Shown: positions 5,649-11,250 of the stretch, in pieces
Layout of the letters: the number at the start of each line of letters is the position of its first letter
Numbering within the stretch: position 1 is the first letter of the stretch
Origin: a virus
UHGV virus genome: UHGV-0259225
DNA: 15,804 nt
Strand: one strand, 5' to 3'
The notes under the pieces: model-generated
The model's database searches: none
Told to the model about the DNA's origin: nothing
Seen by the model: the letters and a program-made list of their open reading frames with translations, nothing else
Program-made: the position numbers and the translations under genes

Positions 5649-6839
5649 TTAATTGCTGTTAACCGAGGTGACCAGACTTGCCAGGTATCTTGAAGTAATA
5701 CGCTGGCGTAGGGTCAGGTTTTCGAGAGGAGGCACCGGTGTATAGTCGTAGTCGATATACAGTTTTCCGGCCTTGAGGGTTTCCGCATCGTTGGCTTCTT
5801 CACTGAACCAGCATGTGCCATCCACGATATAACCGTTGTTTTTCAGTTCGCGGAATTTGGCATTGATGCCATCAATGATGTCGCGAATCAGCGTTGCGGT
5901 GATGGGCTTATCAATAGCCCACATGTGCGCCTCAGCCATCGTGTCGGCCAGTACCTGCGCGGTACGTGTGTAGCTTTCAAAGAGGAAAAGTGGGTCATCG
6001 GAGCAGGTACGGTTACCCCAGAAACGGAAACCGTCGCGGCGAACCAGCGTTGTGACGCCTGCCTCGTTCAGCAGGTCAGCATCAGTGCCAGACTTCTGCA
6101 AATCCCAGAATACAGATGCGCTGATGCCGGTAACACCGTTTACCCCGACGTTGGACAGCGTTTTATGCCAGCCCTGCTCCTGGTCGATTTTGGCACGCAG
6201 CCCCAGCGCACGGGCGGTGGCATACGCGGTGGCGGTGGTACTGGTGACCGTATCCCATGCAAGGAAATCCGGCCAGATGACCATCAGCTCACGCTGACTG
6301 AAATTCTGACGGTAGGCTTTTGCCTCGGAAATGGTTTTACAGCCCCATGCGCTGATATACCCGAAGGCATTCAGTTCCTGGCATACCGATGCCAGTGCAA
6401 CCGCCACCTCTTTGGTGTCCAGTCCCGGTACGCCGAGAATGCGCGGTTTAACGCCGGTAACCGACTCTGCGCCCATCAGGGCTTTCAGTCCGGTGTACTG
6501 ACCGTTTTCGTCAGTGGTGCCGATGATATTGGAAACGGTCTGCGCGAGTTTCGTTTCTTCGTCGTCGCCGGTGCCGTCTTCCACGCGCACGACAACGGTG
6601 ACCGGTTTTGACTGGTCAGCGATGGCCTGCAACGATGCCGCCAGCGTGCCTTTTTTACCGGCCTTTGCAATCGCGCTCTGCACATTGGTGATCAGCACCG
6701 GTTTATTGACGGGGAAGGTTTCCGCATCCGCATCGCTGGCCGTGCAGACCATGCCAACAATGGCGGTGGATACGGTGGAAATGACGCGGGTGCCGTCGTT
6801 AATCTCCAGCACCTGCACGCCGTGATGATAGTCACTCAT
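5649..6839 (-). CDS. FI: Major tail sheath protein FI, 396 aa
   Basis: 396 aa as P2 gpFI; first gene of the FI-FII-E-T-U-D operon; GGAG RBS 9 nt upstream. Confidence 0.9.
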   Translation of the reverse strand: MSDYHHGVQVLEINDGTRVISTVSTAIVGMVCTASDADAETFPVNKPVLITNVQSAIAKAGKKGTLAASLQAIADQSKPVTVVVRVEDGTGDDEETKLAQTVSNIIGTTDENGQYTGLKALMGAESVTGVKPRILGVPGLDTKEVAVALASVCQELNAFGYISAWGCKTISEAKAYRQNFSQRELMVIWPDFLAWDTVTSTTATAYATARALGLRAKIDQEQGWHKTLSNVGVNGVTGISASVFWDLQKSGTDADLLNEAGVTTLVRRDGFRFWGNRTCSDDPLFLFESYTRTAQVLADTMAEAHMWAIDKPITATLIRDIIDGINAKFRELKNNGYIVDGTCWFSEEANDAETLKAGKLYIDYDYTPVPPLENLTLRQRITSRYLASLVTSVNSN

Positions 6840-6930
6840 CCGTTTAACTCCGTGGTTAATGGGTGCAACTATTTTCTGTTGTGCAGAGCATGAGACGCTA
6901 TTTGACCTGGCTGGTCAGTGGATGAAACAA
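6840..6930 (-). promoter_or_regulatory. Expected location of the Ogr-dependent late promoter P_F; contains partial dyads (TGT-N12-ACG at 6880-6897; TGACC-N5-GGTCA at 6903-6917)
   Basis: Position is by synteny with P2 (P_F precedes FI). P2 late promoters carry a TGT-N12-ACA dyad near -55; only imperfect matches found here. Confidence 0.3.
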
Positions 6931-6963
6931 CAGATAAAGAAAAGGCGGGCAATTCGCCCGCCT
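6931..6963 (-). terminator. Rho-independent terminator on minus strand: stem aggcgggc/gcccgcct (6943-6950 / 6956-6963), loop aattc, followed on the minus strand by UUUUCUUUAUCUGUUGUUU
   Basis: Read directly. Ends the G/cargo transcript and insulates it from the FI operon. Confidence 0.7.
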
Positions 6964-7060
6964 GTCCTGATTTGAACTCACTCATTTTCCGACTGACAAT
7001 TTACATAGCCCAAAAGTTATCAAATCTGACGGTCTGCTTTGAACAAGAAGCGGACATTTG

Positions 7061-7087
7061 CCTGTCAGGGTATATGCCGCTCTGCGG
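7061..7087. repeat. Left copy of an imperfect inverted repeat flanking the cargo cassette (CCTGTCAGG-gtatat-GCCGCTCTG)
   Basis: Partner at 7911-7928 reads CAGAGCGG-CCTGTCAG on the plus strand, i.e. the reverse complement with a 6-7 nt deletion and one mismatch. Confidence 0.35.
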
Positions 7088-7168
7088 TTATTATCCAGAA
7101 TCAATAATTCATCTGAGTTGGATTACATATAAAACATAGTTACCCCATGAATAACCATTAGCAGATTA

Positions 7169-7762
7169 TCAATTATGTAAATCTTTTATTTTATGTTCTT
7201 TGGCGTGTTGTGACAACAAATGGCTATAGCGTTTAAGCAAAATATTAGAAAGATTAAGCTCATTCATGAAGTGTTCTTCTAATAAGTAACCATCAATATC
7301 AACTTTAATATCATTACCACTTTTCATCTTCTGTAACGTAGATTTTACACGCTCCAGCAGGATGCTTTGCTCATGGTAATAGTCCATAAGAAGAGTAACA
7401 TCCTCTTTATCAAGCTTACTTAATTCGCTGAAGTAGGATTTAAACACTTTATCACTCTGGTTTAATGCAATCTGTAAGCGAGGCCCCCCTAATGATTTGA
7501 CATTAATGGCAAAAGGCTCGCCAACAAAATGCTCCGAATTTTCGTCAAAGCCAATATATCTCGTTTTATCAAGAAAAGTGAGAGCGCGATGGTTATTAGC
7601 GATTTCATATGCAAACATTGTTCTGATACTGTCCCTCTCAGCCTCCATGCTTATATCATCACGATGATTTGTATAAAATATATTTCCAACAAAGAGAACC
7701 ATAGCAAGAATCACTGAACTTGCCTCCCAGTTAATATTTTTTAATCGTCGCTTAGTAAACAT
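7169..7762 (-). CDS. Hypothetical membrane-anchored protein (197 aa), AT-rich cargo gene at the Z/fun-equivalent position; candidate phage-exclusion/defence protein
   Basis: Intact ORF with AAGGTG RBS; N-terminal KRRLK followed by hydrophobic segment SSVILAMVLFVGNIFY (one predicted TM helix), then a charged, likely helical domain. GC content visibly lower (mid-30s % by eye) than flanking tail genes (>50%). No motif I can assign. Confidence 0.75.
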   Translation of the reverse strand: MFTKRRLKNINWEASSVILAMVLFVGNIFYTNHRDDISMEAERDSIRTMFAYEIANNHRALTFLDKTRYIGFDENSEHFVGEPFAINVKSLGGPRLQIALNQSDKVFKSYFSELSKLDKEDVTLLMDYYHEQSILLERVKSTLQKMKSGNDIKVDIDGYLLEEHFMNELNLSNILLKRYSHLLSQHAKEHKIKDLHN

Positions 7763-7983
7763 ACCGCACCTTAATTATCAAAAATATTCCTTCAGTGTTA
7801 TCTGGTTAGCCTAAACCAAGTCATTAAAGTCTGCAGGATATCATATACATAAAATGTATTGATTAGAATTTGCACTAATAAAATAATGCTTTACTAAAAT
7901 CTACTCCAGACACAGAGCGGCCTGTCAGATTAGGCTTTACTCTGTGCCATAGATACGTTTGCTCACTCCAGAGATCATACAAC
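7763..7983 (-). promoter_or_regulatory. AT-rich 220-bp region upstream of the cargo gene; probable autonomous promoter region
   Basis: No ORF; strongly AT-rich with several TATA-like hexamers (e.g. TATGAT, TATATG on minus strand). No confident -35/-10 pair assigned. Confidence 0.3.
7911..7928. repeat. Right copy of the imperfect inverted repeat flanking the cargo cassette
   Basis: See 7061-7087. Confidence 0.35.
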
Positions 7984-8511
7984 TTATTGCGGCATTTCCG
8001 GCCATTCAGGATTTGCAGGATCCACACGACTGACCAGAACGCTGTAACGCTCCCATGCATCCAGTCGGCTACGCTCCTCATCTGTTGCCATGTTCAGTCT
8101 GACCGCGCGCTCCAGCGGCAAAATCACGGATTCAGCTTCGGAAAGTAAAGTTGCCTTTTGTGATTCTGCCAGTTGCTGCTGTTCGTCTGCCGTATAAATC
8201 CGCTTAATCACGGCACCATCCTTAAACATCCATTTACCTGAGTCATCAGCACGTCGGTTAGCGGTAATATCAGGAACCTCGACAACGCTAAAACCTTCAG
8301 GATGAAGCGTTGAAGCATCTCTGGTGATGGCGACAATAATATTATTCTCGTCGTAAACAATTTTTATTGTGTCTGGCTGAAAATTACTTACTTCCTCATA
8401 CCAGTTTTTTCCGTCTTCGGACCATAACCAGATAACATCAAAATTCTTTGTTAGCTGATATTGTTCTTTTGTTTTTGGATTACCTGACTTAATGTTTTTT
8501 AAATGCTGCAT
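7984..8511 (-). CDS. G: Tail fibre assembly protein G (Tfa-type chaperone), 175 aa
   Basis: 175 aa as P2 gpG; immediately downstream of H. The 5' third of the gene is markedly AT-rich. Confidence 0.85.
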
Positions 8512-8514
8512 AAT

Positions 8515-11250
8515 TTACACCTGCGCAACGTTATACCATGTGCCATTGATGTATTTTTGTATTGGTCTGAATACTGCGGGGTCATCACCATCGACTTCAC
8601 CGACAATACCAAGCCCCGTGATTACATGGCCTGATTTTTCATACATCACGCCTTTTTGCATGGTCTGAACAACACGTGTGCCAAGTCTGACATCTCTCAC
8701 ATAGCGGGAATCAAAGTTACCGTAATCCGAGGGATTAACACGCCCCGTAATATTTATGGTTTTATTACTTTGAATACTTCCCGAGACAAAGCGCATAATA
8801 TGGACGCTATTAGCATAAACATCCAGATTACCATCACCATTTTGTTTAAAGCCCGTGTCATTATCACCCAAAACAATCGAATTACCGCCAAGAGCACTGG
8901 ATGTTCCTATACCCAGAGCACCATTCAATTGACCACCAGATAACGGCAGTGCACCGACATCTCCCGCTGTAGGTTTTCGCGTTGTGGTATAAAACTCAGA
9001 CCAGTCAGCCTCGAATCCGTAACCGTCACGAGCAGAACGATAAAAAATACCGCCGTTCTTATAATTAACGCGGAACTGGGCGGCGGGACAACTTCCTTCA
9101 CCGATATTAAAATGAAGAATTAACGTTGATGCCCCACCAGTAGTTGCGTTATAGGCTCCGCTACTCCAGTTCCACCCAACGGCTTTATCATTCGCAACGG
9201 TGTCTCCTGTTTTTCCTGAAGCAAATGCACCAATATTTTTCGGCGTCAGGTTAATATCTGATGTTCCATCAAACGAAACGTTATTAATTTTACGGGCTGT
9301 TTTCAGCTTTGTTGCTGTCGCCGCATTGCCGGACAGTTCACCAGAAAGGCCAGCACTGAATGTCTGTTTCGCGCCCCATGTCTGGGCTTCGTCAATGATT
9401 GGTACTCGTCTTGCTGTGATCGTGCGGCTTCCCGGATTTCCTGAAATACGCACCATAAAAAATCGGTAGTTCGCTTTACTTACAGTGCTGCGCCATACAT
9501 GCATTGAGCGCCCCGTACCGGAATCATCACTCGGACCAACTGCGATGTTTATCAGGTTGCCATCAATGACGCCCCAGTCCATACCGTCGGGAATATTGGT
9601 CATATTATCCAGCCTAACGGCTATCAGACTGCCCGGCACAAAATCGTAGCTCTGCCAGTCCAGACTGGATAGTTTTGCCACTGCGCCACCGATGCCCAGA
9701 TTCAGAGGCAACGAAAAGGAGTTATATACTTCTCGCCATTCGGTCCATTTTCTCCCGGCATAGACGCGCTCAAAAGTGCGCCCCTGTGTGGTTTCTGATT
9801 TCCCTGTGGTTGTGTAACGCTGCCAGACAGATACACCATCAAAACGCCTGATTACTTCCAGTATTCCAAGCAGTGTCGCTCCAGCGGTATCCTGCATTGG
9901 ACCGTTTGACGCCTTCCCTGTAACGCTGTAAATGCCTGGCGAAGTCAGATCATTCAAATCACCTTCGTAATAACGACATTCTGACTGATGGCCTACTCTT
10001 GACCACGGCTCCCACTGTGGGTTCTGTGCATTCCATGTAGCAGAAAGGCAGCGAACATATACGTTCCCACGGCGGGTCGTATAGCGTTGCGTGCGTGAGT
10101 ACCCACCACCCTCAAGAACTTCAAGGAATCCCTGACCATAACTTCCTTCTTCCGGATAGTTGCGGTCAAATGAAGCGATAGAGCCACTACTGTTTCGCCA
10201 TAAACCAAGATGCTCTGCGCCTCCTAGCGTGTTCAGGTCAATAGTTGTGCTCAGGGGGCGTGTTGCAGACTGAATCTGACGCCAGTAGCTCCACGGACCG
10301 TCTGAGCCATTCCAGGTGCCAGAAAGATTACGCATATAAACATTGCCAGTTCTGGTGGTATAACGCTGCATTCCGGAAAAATTACCGCCATTGAATACCT
10401 CAAGAACACCGACTGCACCGTCTTCAGGGAAATTTTTCTCCAGTGTTGCGTTGGAGGATGTGGATTTATACCAGACACCCACATAAGCCTTAACTGGACC
10501 AAATGTATTGAGATCAGCATCAACCGGCATTTCGCCGTTGTTTTTCATAAACGTCAGGCTGGTAACACCAATATTGTCCAGAAAAGCTGATTTATCCTGG
10601 ATATCTGCACCGTTCTGATTTTTCGCCAGACGTGAATTTGCGTTGTCATTTGCTGCCTTGACCGCTTTTGGCGTTGCCGCCAGCTCTTCACTGGTGCTGT
10701 TTGTTGCACTGCTTAACTGAGTAAAACCTTTTTCTGTCAGCGTGGCGTCAGGATGGCGGCGGGACTGCTCATGCTCTGCGATTTTGTCATCGACGTAATC
10801 CTGCGTCGCCATCACTGTGCTGGCATCAATACTCAGCTCAACGGACGCCACGTTGCTGAGAATAATAACCATGCGGCAGGTCTGCGCACGTCCGGAGCCT
10901 TCAGCCAGTTCTGGCTTATAGCTTTCTGCCATGTTGGACACCGCAATCAGTGTTCCGGCATCGTCATACAGACCAAGTTCACGCATCCAGAAGCCGCCCA
11001 CTTCTGGCGGTACAACCAGTTCAGCCACGATATAGTTTTTATTCTTGTTATCCACGCTGACTTTATTCAGAGCGTGACGCCAGACCTCATGCACCAGTTT
11101 CGTCTGACCGGCATCCGGCACCGGCAATTTGCCATTACCGTCACCCACGGCCATTGCAGACAGGTTTACTTTTTTCCCGCCGGGGACAGTGGCGGCTGCC
11201 AGCTTTGCGGCTCCGGCAGTAGTGATAACGGTTTTAAATTTCGTGCTCAT
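8515..11250 (-). CDS. H: Tail fibre protein H, 911 aa (P2-like N-terminus, expanded repeat-containing shaft, divergent C-terminal receptor-binding region)
   Basis: N-terminal ~230 aa match recalled P2 gpH (MSTKFKTVITTAGAAKLAAATVPGG...); located between I and G. Confidence 0.9.
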   Translation of the reverse strand: MSTKFKTVITTAGAAKLAAATVPGGKKVNLSAMAVGDGNGKLPVPDAGQTKLVHEVWRHALNKVSVDNKNKNYIVAELVVPPEVGGFWMRELGLYDDAGTLIAVSNMAESYKPELAEGSGRAQTCRMVIILSNVASVELSIDASTVMATQDYVDDKIAEHEQSRRHPDATLTEKGFTQLSSATNSTSEELAATPKAVKAANDNANSRLAKNQNGADIQDKSAFLDNIGVTSLTFMKNNGEMPVDADLNTFGPVKAYVGVWYKSTSSNATLEKNFPEDGAVGVLEVFNGGNFSGMQRYTTRTGNVYMRNLSGTWNGSDGPWSYWRQIQSATRPLSTTIDLNTLGGAEHLGLWRNSSGSIASFDRNYPEEGSYGQGFLEVLEGGGYSRTQRYTTRRGNVYVRCLSATWNAQNPQWEPWSRVGHQSECRYYEGDLNDLTSPGIYSVTGKASNGPMQDTAGATLLGILEVIRRFDGVSVWQRYTTTGKSETTQGRTFERVYAGRKWTEWREVYNSFSLPLNLGIGGAVAKLSSLDWQSYDFVPGSLIAVRLDNMTNIPDGMDWGVIDGNLINIAVGPSDDSGTGRSMHVWRSTVSKANYRFFMVRISGNPGSRTITARRVPIIDEAQTWGAKQTFSAGLSGELSGNAATATKLKTARKINNVSFDGTSDINLTPKNIGAFASGKTGDTVANDKAVGWNWSSGAYNATTGGASTLILHFNIGEGSCPAAQFRVNYKNGGIFYRSARDGYGFEADWSEFYTTTRKPTAGDVGALPLSGGQLNGALGIGTSSALGGNSIVLGDNDTGFKQNGDGNLDVYANSVHIMRFVSGSIQSNKTINITGRVNPSDYGNFDSRYVRDVRLGTRVVQTMQKGVMYEKSGHVITGLGIVGEVDGDDPAVFRPIQKYINGTWYNVAQV
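9721..10518 (-). repeat. Three tandem diverged ~280-bp (~93-aa) repeats inside H (protein residues ~245-337, 338-430, 431-510)
   Basis: Each unit starts DLN(T/D)(F/L) and contains FPEDG/YPEEG ... LEV ... QRYTT(R/T) ... GNVY(M/V)R ... W; DNA copies are diverged but recognisable (e.g. cctcaagaac near 10110 and 10390). Confidence 0.7.

What the first reader, a model, noticed from the sequence alone, without database searches (positions are those of the whole stretch)
7061..7928. Imperfect inverted repeats bracket the cargo cassette
CCTGTCAGG-(gtatat)-GCCGCTCTG at 7061-7084 is mirrored by CAGAGCGG-CCTGTCAG at 7913-7928, about 16 of 17 matching positions in inverted orientation, enclosing the cargo gene and its upstream region. 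This could mark the recombination boundaries by which cargo is exchanged at this hotspot, or be a remnant of a small mobile element. A chance match of this length inside ~1 kb is possible but not likely.
Basis: seen in the sequence. Interest (0 to 1): 0.45.

Follow-up and report, generated by a model that had tools for sequence, protein, structure and literature searches.

The report
Transposon ends flanking P2 cargo gene
The repeat is real, but it is only a fragment of the already-described ~90-base inverted repeats that flank the swappable "Z/fun" gene slot of P2-like phages, and those repeats look like the ends of an old transposase-less IS481-type transposon.

Summary
The strings are at the stated coordinates. 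They form a 9-nt exact inverted repeat plus a 9-nt exact direct repeat. The window is the late region of a P2-like phage. The AT-rich cargo lies between tail genes G and FI, the classical Z/fun hotspot.

Across 31 unrelated cargo types, similarity ends at the same two symmetric points, window 7058|7059 and 7895|7896. These are the inner edges of two inverted 86-nt ends, 6973-7058 and 7896-7981.

GenBank records AJ512680 and AJ512683 already annotate these flanks as "left/right inverted repeat" of the Z region, so the core phenomenon is known.

Additional observations:
- The same 86-nt ends flank cargo on plasmids and chromosomes and beside integrase genes; 17 of 31 pairs have perfect 7-bp target duplications.
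- The first ~29 nt of the ends match the ends of ~1.2-kb IS481-family insertion sequences.
- One 6.7-kb CBASS-carrying copy sits at two unrelated sites.

Best reading: an old, non-autonomous IS481-type cargo transposon whose interior is exchanged by recombination within its ends.

The parts
6943..6963 (-). Strong intrinsic terminator: a 9-bp stem with 7 G-C pairs, followed by TTTCTTT. It is the ancestral terminator of gene G. In empty sites it follows the G stop codon directly.
   Evidence: terminator scan; empty sites.
6966..6972 (-). FI-side flanking 7-mer, AATCAGG on the minus strand. It is a degenerate copy of the target-site duplication, matching its partner AATAAGT at 5 of 7 positions. 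Empty sites have AATAAAC or AATAAAT here.
   Evidence: 7-bp duplications in relatives.
6973..7058 (+). FI-side 86-nt end ('B-type'), read from outer tip to inner edge on the + strand. It corresponds to the 'right inverted repeat' of GenBank AJ512683 (window about 6965-7055).
   Evidence: 62 of 86 identical to the B-type consensus. Conserved across 31 cargo types. GenBank annotation.
7026..7058 (+). Dyad-symmetric 33-nt inner core of the B-type end: CTGACGGTCTGCTTTGAACAAGAAGCGGACATT. The cargo breakpoint follows base 7058.
   Evidence: Folds at -6.3 kcal/mol.
7059..7895 (-). Cargo module of 837 nt, AT-rich. This type occurs in 7 of the 50 loci examined.
7061..7084 (+). It is a third, partial copy of the inner segment of an A-type end (CTGtCAGG + 7-nt insertion + CCGCTCTG), pointing into the cargo. 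It is specific to this cargo type. CCTGTCAG can also pair with CTGACGG of the B core.
   Evidence: fold at -11.5 kcal/mol.
7169..7762 (-). Cargo ORF of 197 aa. No Pfam or PADLOC match; PHROG 3829, function unknown.
7896..7981 (-). G-side 86-nt end ('A-type'), read from outer tip (7981) to inner edge (7896) on the minus strand. It lies within the 'left inverted repeat' of AJ512683 (window about 7899-8011).
   Evidence: 63 of 86 identical to the A-type consensus..
7896..7928 (-). Inner core of the A-type end: CTGACAGGCCGCTCTGTGTCTGGAGTAGATTTT. In this cargo type the distal arm has decayed and the hairpin is lost.
   Evidence: fold at -2.1 kcal/mol, z +0.4.
7982..7988 (-). G-side flanking 7-mer, AATAAGT on the minus strand. 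It contains the stop codon of G (7984-7986).
7984..8511 (-). Gene G, tail fibre assembly protein (Caudo_TAP).
5649..6839 (-). Gene FI, tail sheath.

Best explanation
The window carries the Z/fun accessory-gene slot of a P2-like phage. The slot is an old insertion of a transposase-less transposon with 86-nt terminal inverted repeats. It landed on the 7-mer AATAAAy, which holds the stop codon of gene G, between G and its terminator.

The two ends are 7896-7981 (A-type) and 6973-7058 (B-type). They have stayed in place in the phage lineage while the DNA between them has been replaced many times. The inner edges of the ends (..GGACrTT) are therefore the cargo breakpoints.

Shown here:
- the ends, the symmetric breakpoints and the empty site;
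- the same ends elsewhere with 7-bp target duplications;
- an identical element at two unrelated sites;
- IS481-family insertion sequences that share the terminal ~29 nt.

Inferred:
- New copies arise by transposition, catalysed in trans by an IS481-family transposase.
- Cargo replacement at a fixed site occurs by a double crossover within the two ends. The partner would be another copy of the element family in the same cell, on a chromosome, plasmid, prophage or satellite.

It points into the cargo and is nested just inside the B-type end. I read it as a footprint of an earlier cargo replacement, not as a working boundary.
For: (1) Breakpoints. Fifty loci hold both ends and fall into 31 cargo clusters. 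Column conservation among cluster representatives is 0.74-1.0 up to position +32 of the core on both sides. It drops to 0.3-0.45 at +33 (sequences).

(2) Empty sites in Yersinia phage P37 and in E. coli lack both ends and the cargo. In them the G stop codon is followed directly by the terminator.

(3) The flanks are already annotated as the 'left' and 'right inverted repeat' of the 'proviral Z-region' in GenBank AJ512683.1 and AJ512680.1. Prototype P2 carries them around fun(Z).

(4) The same 86-nt ends, with tip TGTATTAGCTCAGAyTTGAyCTGAC, occur outside the G-FI context. Examples are a site downstream of carB, sites after P4-type integrases, plasmids and Acinetobacter. Of 31 distinct tip-to-tip pairs, 17 have perfect 7-of-7 flanking duplications and 4 have 6 of 7.

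(5) L186 and L205 hold the same 6.7-kb element. They are 98.7% identical exactly from tip to tip, with unrelated flanks and different duplications (CTTTATC, CATCACC). The cargo is a type II CBASS system.

(6) L180, L186 and L187 share one insertion site and one duplication but hold three cargos of 3.4, 6.7 and 1.4 kb. This is the same behaviour as in P2.

(7) IS-sized units of ~1.2 kb bounded by inverted copies of the same tip (L247, 1201 nt; L253, 1220 nt) hold disrupted copies of a transposase gene. The first ~29 nt of the L247 end match the 86-nt ends. A related intact gene in L240 scores 285.8 bits against the IS481-family model NF033577, whose cut-off is 224.

(8) Within the window's cargo type the cargo-proximal arm of B is constant. 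Its outer arm and loop vary and match other backbones. This is the mosaic expected from crossovers inside the ends.

(9) Long cargos contain internal end remnants of up to 76 nt.
Against: - No transposase with these ends was found in Enterobacterales or in any P2-like locus, so mobilisation in trans is inferred.
- The IS copies share only the first ~29 nt with the 86-nt ends.
- The two IS-sized units whose flanks could be read lack clean 7-bp duplications: 5 of 7 by eye for L247 and 2 of 7 for L253.
- In the window the flanking 7-mers match at only 5 of 7, and the outer halves of the ends are only about 60-70% like the consensus. Transposition into P2 is therefore ancient and reconstructed, not observed.
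- Exchange by homologous recombination is not distinguished from site-specific recombination at the dyad-symmetric core. Nilsson et al. 2004 appear to have proposed the latter, judging from their title, but I could not read the paper.
- The origin of the third copy is a guess.
Confidence: 0.7

Rival explanations
1. The dyad-symmetric 33-nt cores are sites for a site-specific (tyrosine) recombinase, and cargo is exchanged by recombinase-mediated cassette exchange between inverted sites. This resembles the way pdif modules are thought to move. It also fits the title of Nilsson et al. 2004.
For: - The core can be read as 11-6-11: CAGTCCGCTCT GTGCCA GGAGCGGACGT.
- Boundaries are sharp to the nucleotide and symmetric.
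- Outside P2 the ends often sit directly 3' of integrase genes: L122, L141, L147, L113 and L140.
- A small tyrosine recombinase gene lies next to ends in L113 and L129, and inside the L069 cargo.
Against: - The neighbouring integrases belong to different families, and no recombinase is conserved with the ends.
- Variable 7-bp duplications at the outer tips, 86 nt away from the core, point to a staggered-cut transposase.
- The element tips match IS481-family ISs.
- There is no covariation in the arms.
- The core has decayed in the window's A-type end, yet this cargo type is common.
Confidence: 0.15
2. The right arm is functional backbone. The left arm (7061-7084) is a chance or locally selected sequence, for example a small hairpin in the 3' untranslated region of the cargo gene, with no historical link to the ends.
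For: - Exact 9-mers in inverted orientation are common in this interval.
- CCGC-TCT-GCGG at 7077-7087 forms its own mini-hairpin, and the scan flags 7066-7084 as terminator-like on the + strand.
- The left arm is absent from the other cargo types.
Against: - The gapped 15-of-16 match to a predefined 16-mer was reached in only 0.1-0.3% of shuffles.
- It starts 3 nt from the breakpoint.
- It points into the cargo, as a true end would.
- It shares the G at core position 7, the base of the A-type consensus, where most P2-like A cores have T.
- Other cargos carry clear internal end remnants.
Confidence: 0.1
3. The hairpins are RNA or transcription signals: terminators, stabilisers or an RNase III stem formed by A pairing with B. 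They would insulate the cargo from late transcription and would be conserved for that reason. Recombination would merely stop where conservation stops.
For: - The consensus A hairpin folds at -9.5 kcal/mol, z -3.8.
- 85% of stem cells are paired, against 33-57% in slid controls.
- The elements insert between stop codons and terminators.
Against: - No T-run follows the hairpins, and flags only 6943-6963.
- The P2 record places the V-operon terminator elsewhere, inside the cargo.
- There is no covariation beyond shuffles.
- No Rfam family matches.
- The window's A hairpin is lost.
- This reading does not explain the tips, the 7-bp duplications or the identical element at two sites.
Confidence: 0.05

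Closest known systems
Inverted repeats of the P2 'Z region' (fun(Z) locus). GenBank AJ512680-AJ512683, from the Haggard-Ljungquist laboratory; presumably described in Nilsson, Karlsson and Haggard-Ljungquist 2004, Mol Biol Evol 21:1-13.
   Same: Same locus and same sequences. The annotated 'right inverted repeat' (91 nt) corresponds to window about 6965-7055. The 'left inverted repeat' (113 nt) corresponds to window about 7899-8011. Different cargo lies between them.
   Different: Those annotations run from inside gene G to the core and do not mark tips or target duplications. I could not read the paper. I therefore cannot say whether it recognised the 86-nt ends, the 7-bp duplications or the IS481 link. 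Its title proposes site-specific recombination.
Non-autonomous derivatives of insertion sequences that carry passenger genes. From memory: mobile insertion cassettes such as MIC231 of the IS231 group, and 'transporter IS'.
   Same: IS-type terminal inverted repeats flank passenger genes with no transposase. Target-site duplications are present. The same element occurs at several sites. The termini are shared with an autonomous IS family, here IS481.
   Different: The ends are long (86 nt) and come in two types (A and B). They share only ~29 nt with the autonomous IS copies found. The interior is repeatedly swapped at fixed sites. Mobilisation was not shown.
pdif modules of Acinetobacter plasmids (from memory).
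   Same: Discrete cargo modules are bracketed by short inverted sites. Modules are found in many contexts, and it is unknown how new modules form.
   Different: pdif sites are 28-bp XerC/XerD sites with no target duplication. Here the ends are 86 nt, show no visible dif-like arms, and have 7-bp duplications at the outer tips.
Integron gene cassettes and attC sites.
   Same: Promoter-poor or single-gene cassettes with imperfect palindromes at their borders. Arrays with internal sites exist.
   Different: An integron has one attC per cassette in direct orientation, an adjacent IntI integrase and GTTRRRY core sites. Here two inverted ends flank each cargo, no IntI is present, and there are target duplications.
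P2 and P4 defence hotspots (Rousset et al. 2022, PMC9122126; Vassallo et al. 2022, PMC9519451; iLund4u preprint 10.1101/2024.10.15.618418).
   Same: The window's slot is the second P2 hotspot (the fun locus) noted by Vassallo et al. and by the iLund4u authors.
   Different: In the text I could search, those papers do not mention inverted repeats, hairpins or transposon ends at this hotspot. Rousset et al. propose cos-end recombination for the other hotspot.

Membership tests
P2 Z/fun-region flanking inverted repeats (GenBank AJ512680/AJ512683 annotation) | Located between tail genes G and FI of a P2-like phage. | tested here: met
   G (Caudo_TAP) at 7984-8511 and FI (sheath) at 5649-6839. The window is 99.9% identical to Peduovirus P24B2 over 6700-8200.
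P2 Z/fun-region flanking inverted repeats (GenBank AJ512680/AJ512683 annotation) | Sequence homologous to the annotated left and right inverted repeats. | tested here: met
   A 73-nt consensus query hits AJ512683 and AJ512680 under the feature 'right inverted repeat'. The sequences were read. The window's own ends align to the same consensus.
P2 Z/fun-region flanking inverted repeats (GenBank AJ512680/AJ512683 annotation) | Unrelated cargo between conserved repeats in different phages. | tested here: met
   31 cargo clusters with common breakpoints.
Non-autonomous IS481-family-derived cargo transposon | Terminal inverted repeats that share their termini with autonomous IS481-family elements. 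| tested here: met
   The L247 end shares about its first 29 nt (TGTATTAGCTCAGACTTGATCTGACAGTT) with the 86-nt ends, and L240, L253 and L175 carry the same tip motif next to a related transposase gene. The intact L240 transposase scores 285.8 bits against NF033577, cut-off 224. In the window the tips are degenerate (TGTATGATCTC and TGAACTCACTC).
Non-autonomous IS481-family-derived cargo transposon | Target-site duplication of fixed length at the outer tips. | tested here: inconclusive
   Relatives: 17 of 31 pairs have a perfect 7 bp and 4 have 6 of 7. Window: AATAAGT versus AATCAGG, 5 of 7, consistent with an old insertion into AATAAAy.
Non-autonomous IS481-family-derived cargo transposon | The same element at unrelated sites, showing that it moves. 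| tested here: met
   L186 and L205 are 98.7% identical from tip to tip, with unrelated flanks and different duplications. This was shown for relatives, not for the P2 copy.
Non-autonomous IS481-family-derived cargo transposon | No transposase gene between the ends. | tested here: met
   The window cargo is one 197-aa ORF of unknown function. The clustering of interior ORFs of elements outside P2 gave no recurrent transposase between paired 86-nt ends, and the interior proteins scanned against Pfam had no transposase domain.
Non-autonomous IS481-family-derived cargo transposon | Mobilised in trans by the cognate IS481-family transposase. | not testable with these tools
   Needs a mobilisation assay.
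Integron cassette / attC | A single attC per cassette with R''/R' core sites (RYYYAAC ... GTTRRRY) and an adjacent IntI integrase. | tested here: not met
   Two inverted ends flank each cargo, and no IntI is present. The GTT at the inner edge has its AAC partner only across the whole cargo.
Xer (dif/pdif) module | 28-bp site with XerC and XerD arms resembling dif. | tested here: not met
   By inspection against the dif sequence recalled from memory, no similarity beyond the 11-6-11 geometry. The 7-bp duplications at the tips argue against it.
Intrinsic terminator | G+C-rich hairpin followed by a T-run on the transcribed strand. | tested here: not met
   The scan flags 6943-6963 but neither core. 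The P2 record annotates a different hairpin as the V-operon terminator.
Structured RNA family (Rfam) | Match to a curated covariance model, or covariation in the stem. | tested here: not met
   No match near any gathering score. Covariation does not exceed shuffles.

The most novel reading that the evidence does not exclude
The inverted repeats of the P2 Z/fun hotspot would be the 86-bp ends of a widespread family of transposase-less cargo transposons. The family would derive from IS481-family insertion sequences and make 7-bp target duplications.

It is found in Enterobacterales and beyond. It carries defence systems, for example a complete type II CBASS, and other accessory genes. It inserts between stop codons and terminators in phages, beside integrase genes of prophages and satellites, on plasmids and on chromosomes.

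Once a copy is fixed at a site, it would act as a landing pad whose interior is swapped by recombination within the ends. This would give a concrete molecular origin for at least one classical phage 'defence hotspot'. It would also give a route by which defence cargo moves between phages, satellites, plasmids and chromosomes.

I could not establish whether this has been published. Nilsson et al. 2004 was unreadable here, and no ISfinder or TnCentral look-up was possible.
Probability: 0.35. Interest if true: 0.65.

Novelty: already known. Interest (0 to 1): 0.4.

Why it matters
Hotspots of accessory and anti-phage genes in P2-like phages are much used to discover defence systems. The papers I could search either leave the turnover mechanism at this hotspot open or discuss only the other, cos-adjacent hotspot.

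If the flanks are transposon ends that also occur on plasmids, on chromosomes and next to integrases, three things follow:
- The ends give a sequence handle for finding cargo slots genome-wide.
- They explain nucleotide-precise cargo boundaries.
- They suggest how the same cargo can move between phages, satellites and plasmids.

For the finding as submitted the consequence is modest. It re-identifies a feature annotated in GenBank about twenty years ago, and the particular pair of strings is not the functional boundary.

Tried and rejected
1. Cargo inserted into the loop of a G-proximal hairpin, with the distal arm displaced to 7076-7084. Rejected. The window's A core still has a distal arm in place, only decayed (GGAGTAGATTTT versus GGAGCGGACATT).

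2. attC-like and Xer/dif-like sites. Rejected; see the membership tests.

3. Resemblance to the 38-bp Tn3-family inverted repeat (TCTGAC..GAnCGAAAA..ACGTT), to phage Mu left-end tips and to ERIC repeats. These were recalled from memory only. Tn3 and Mu make 5-bp duplications, and the element is single-copy per E. coli genome. Dropped once the IS481 link appeared.

4. A second copy of the element elsewhere in a full P2-like genome, for instance at the old/tin hotspot. None was found. The best other hit scored 17, against 23-29 for the true copies.

5. Covariation support for the hairpin. None.

6. Rfam. Nothing.

7. The outer 50 nt of the two P2 arms as inverted repeats of each other. Not significant, 1235 of 2000 shuffles.

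8. Adjacent A and B with no cargo in E. coli. Not found in 5426 genomes. The smallest cargo is an HNH endonuclease gene of about 0.7 kb.

9. Shared cargo between P2 slots and the few non-P2 elements fetched. None, apart from end remnants and a small recombinase gene.

10. Literature. Nilsson 2004, Odegrip 2006 and Christie and Calendar 2016 are not held. Searches for the end sequences as text found only unrelated primers.

11. An autonomous copy with full 86-nt ends and a transposase. Not found.
Full report
**Observation.** CCTGTCAGG is at 7061-7069, GTATAT at 7070-7075 and GCCGCTCTG at 7076-7084. CAGAGCGG is at 7913-7920 and CCTGTCAG at 7921-7928. The repeat finder splits this into an exact 9-nt inverted repeat (7076-7084 with 7913-7921) and an exact 9-nt direct repeat, GCCTGTCAG (7060-7068 and 7920-7928). 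The second block counts as inverted only because CCTG(T/A)CAGG is nearly palindromic. In the strictly inverted register the match is 15 of 16 with a 7-nt gap. The interval holds about ten other exact 9-10-nt inverted pairs, so a blind pair of this kind is not remarkable.

**Context.** Genes lie on the minus strand:
- H, 8515-11250;
- G, a tail fibre assembly protein, 7984-8511;
- a 197-aa ORF, 7169-7762;
- FI, the tail sheath, 5649-6839.

GC falls to 0.29-0.38 between about 7085 and 7912. The segment 6700-8200 is 99.9% identical to Peduovirus P24B2. Many P2-like phages match only the two flanks, with different DNA between them. This is the fun(Z) slot of phage P2. It is one of the known variable loci of P2-like phages (PMC9519451, PMC9122126, preprint 10.1101/2024.10.15.618418).

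**Where cargo variants diverge.** I aligned both junctions of seven phages with different cargo. I then analysed 80 IMG/VR loci found with the FI protein.
- Fifty loci carry a conserved element just downstream of G and an inverted copy about 184 nt upstream of FI.
- Their cargos fall into 31 clusters, and the distance between the two conserved cores is 0.9-4.2 kb.
- Counting from the C of CTGACAG, column conservation among cluster representatives is 0.74-1.0 up to position +32 (..AGCGGACrTT) on both sides. It drops to background (0.3-0.45) at +33.
- In window coordinates the breakpoints are 7058|7059 and 7895|7896.

It is invariant in the seven loci with this cargo and absent from the other 30 types. 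Taking the right arm as a predefined 16-mer, a gapped match of that quality in the 837-nt cargo arose in 3 of 3000 mononucleotide shuffles and 8 of 3000 dinucleotide shuffles. The left arm is thus a real third, partial copy.

**Prior art.** A search of phage records with the FI-side flank hit GenBank AJ512683.1 and AJ512680.1, titled 'proviral Z-region'. The matched stretch there is annotated 'right inverted repeat', and a 'left inverted repeat' is annotated next to G. These map to window about 6965-7055 and 7899-8011. [quoted passage not shown] 2004), a paper cited by the hotspot papers. I could not read it. Prototype P2 has both repeats around fun(Z). Its record does not mark them, and it annotates a different hairpin inside the cargo as the V-operon terminator. 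The statement that inverted repeats bracket the Z/fun cargo is therefore already known.

**What the repeats are.**

*Empty sites.* Empty sites exist in Yersinia phage P37, several IMG/VR loci and E. coli prophages. In them the G stop codon is followed directly by the strong terminator that lies at 6943-6963 in the window. The whole segment 6966-7983 is an insertion relative to that state.

*Copies outside P2.* A pattern scan of one genome per species found the core in about 23 Enterobacterales genomes, mostly with no G or FI gene within 8 kb. Aligning the outward flanks of these copies showed that the unit is 86 nt long. It starts with the tip TGTATTAGCTCAGAyTTGAyCTGAC and comes in two types:
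- A-type: ..CTATGGCACAGAG..CCTAAT-CTGACAGGCAGCTCTGTGCC..
- B-type: ..TTTTCACTGGCAGCACACAATCAAAT-CTGACAGTCTGCTTTGAGCG..

One end of each type, in inverted orientation, flanks a cargo.

*Target duplications.* Perfect 7-bp direct repeats abut the tips. Examples are GCTAATA downstream of carB in Klebsiella spallanzanii, CACTATT after a P4-type integrase, GCTAACT in Pantoea, CTTAATA in Acinetobacter and GCTAAGG on a Klebsiella plasmid. After adding plasmid hits and 120 metagenome loci, 31 distinct tip-to-tip pairs gave 17 perfect 7-of-7 duplications and 4 with 6 of 7.

*Movement and swapping.* L186 and L205 hold the same 6.7-kb element. They are 98.7% identical exactly from tip to tip, with unrelated flanks and different duplications. 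The cargo is a type II CBASS system: cyclase, E1-E2 and a SAVED-HNH effector. L180, L186 and L187 share one site and one duplication but hold three different cargos. That repeats the P2 pattern in another context.

*Link to IS481.* IS-sized units of about 1.2 kb (L247, L253) are bounded by inverted copies of the same tip and hold disrupted copies of a transposase gene. The first ~29 nt of the L247 end match the 86-nt ends. A related intact gene next to such a tip in L240 scores 285.8 bits against the NCBIfam IS481-family model, cut-off 224. Pfam finds HTH and rve domains.

**The window in this light.** The A-type end is 7896-7981 (minus strand), 63 of 86 identical to the consensus. The B-type end is 6973-7058, 62 of 86. 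The flanking 7-mers are AATAAGT, which contains the G stop codon, and AATCAGG. They match at 5 of 7, and empty sites have AATAAAC or AATAAAT at that place. All 31 cargo types share these flanks. This indicates one old insertion followed by replacement of the interior, not repeated insertion.

Three observations fit replacement by crossovers inside the ends:
- The inner ~37 nt of the P2 ends remain close to the family consensus, while the outer ~50 nt have drifted.
- Within the window's cargo type the cargo-proximal arm of B is constant, while its outer arm and loop vary among phages.
- Long cargos contain internal end remnants of up to 76 nt.

None of these excludes a site-specific mechanism.

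**The dyad symmetry of the core.** The consensus A core folds at -9.5 kcal/mol (z -3.8) and the B core at -6.4. In alignments of 35 A cores and 34 B cores, 85% of stem cells pair, against 33-57% when the partner is slid. However, no measure of covariation exceeds the shuffles. In the window's A core the distal arm has decayed and the hairpin is gone (-2.1 kcal/mol, z +0.4). There is no Rfam match, and no T-run follows the cores. I therefore treat the symmetry as part of the transposon end, possibly a binding site, and not as a demonstrated hairpin function.

Read on the plus strand towards the cargo, it is CTGtCAGG, a 7-nt insertion, then CCGCTCTG. This is the inner segment of an A-type end in the orientation a true end would have, nested directly inside the B-type end. 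It shares the G at core position 7, the base of the A-type consensus, where most P2-like A cores have T. Its CCTGTCAG can also pair with CTGACGG of the B core. I read it as a relic of an earlier end left by a past replacement. This is an inference.

**Verdict.** The phenomenon is already annotated in public records. The reading of the repeats as ends of an IS481-type cargo transposon with 7-bp duplications is well supported here for relatives and by reconstruction for the window. I could not determine whether that reading has been published.

Noticed in passing
L186 4447-11154 and L205 6598-13308 (metagenome contigs): The same 6.7-kb element with 86-nt ends carries a complete type II CBASS system (cyclase, E1-E2, SAVED-HNH). 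It sits at two unrelated sites with different perfect 7-bp duplications (CTTTATC, CATCACC) and is 98.7% identical from tip to tip.
   Followed up: yes
L180 250-3638, L187 867-2266, L186 4447-11154: One insertion site with the same duplication (GATAAAG, i.e. CTTTATC on the other strand) holds three different cargos of 3.4, 1.4 and 6.7 kb. This is a non-phage parallel to the P2 slot.
   Followed up: partly
L109, L113, L117, L130, L132, L145, L097, L167, L189 (e.g. L113 around 320): The B-type core is interrupted at the same position in its loop (..CTTTGAGC|TGTGAGTTCAAC..). In L113 the interrupting DNA encodes a transposase with HTH_38 and rve domains that looks like IS30 family. The same junction occurs in several genera, including non-Enterobacterales. 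This suggests an IS that targets this palindrome.
   Followed up: partly
L213 2726-2772; L156 1105-1132; L171 1617-end: In soil metagenomes, minimal palindromic forms occur that consist only of two abutting tips. One is a 47-nt perfect palindrome, TGTATTAGCTCAGACTTGATCTGTCAGATCAAGTCTGAGCTAATACA. They look like cargo-less miniature copies.
   Followed up: no
L122 5152-6393, L141 4020-5288, L147 4785-6008, L140 3420-4493, L113 2594-3361: Outside P2 the elements often lie immediately 3' of tyrosine recombinase genes of different families: P4-type, a prophage integrase next to yfdP/Q/R genes, and a small 255-aa type. This may reflect a preference for the gap between a stop codon and its terminator, or a functional link. 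The small recombinase also occurs inside one P2 cargo (L069).
   Followed up: partly
L016, L019, L030, L033 and about 20 other IMG/VR loci, upstream of FI: Many relatives with about 95% identical FI have no Z slot. Instead, the 3' end of what looks like a DNA invertase (Hin/Gin-like) gene sits directly upstream of the FI promoter. This reading is from sequence only and was not checked against Pfam. It would be the invertible tail-fibre arrangement noted in the iLund4u preprint.
   Followed up: no
L091 (E. coli PSUO2) 481-990: The smallest cargo found between the ends in 5426 E. coli genomes is a single HNH endonuclease gene of about 0.7 kb. No locus had the two ends adjacent without cargo.
   Followed up: partly
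window 6918-7139 (+); L004 460-576; L006 460-597: Short 'hypothetical protein' ORFs annotated in several phage records lie between FI and the cargo, over the terminator and, for the longer ones, part of the B-type end. A similar window ORF (6918-7139) has no Pfam family match. They are probably annotation artefacts.
   Followed up: partly
window about 7958-7969; alignment A2 columns 225-236: There is a 12-nt presence/absence polymorphism in the A-type end, absent in L-413C, pro147 and P24C9. In the phages that carry the insert it is followed by AGCTCA, and most also have AGCTCA at its start (the window has TGCTCA and AGATCA). It looks like a slippage deletion.
   Followed up: no
window 7169-7762 (-): The cargo protein (197 aa) matches PHROG 3829, function unknown, over its full length (E 4e-136). 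It has no Pfam or PADLOC match.
   Followed up: partly
L013 A core; L026 B core: In two cargo types the core is a longer palindrome with about 14-nt arms (13 of 14 paired): CTGACAGTCCGCTC..GAGCGGACTGTCAa and CTGACAGTCTGCTT..AAGCAGACTGTCAc. The ancestral core may have been more symmetric than the consensus.
   Followed up: no
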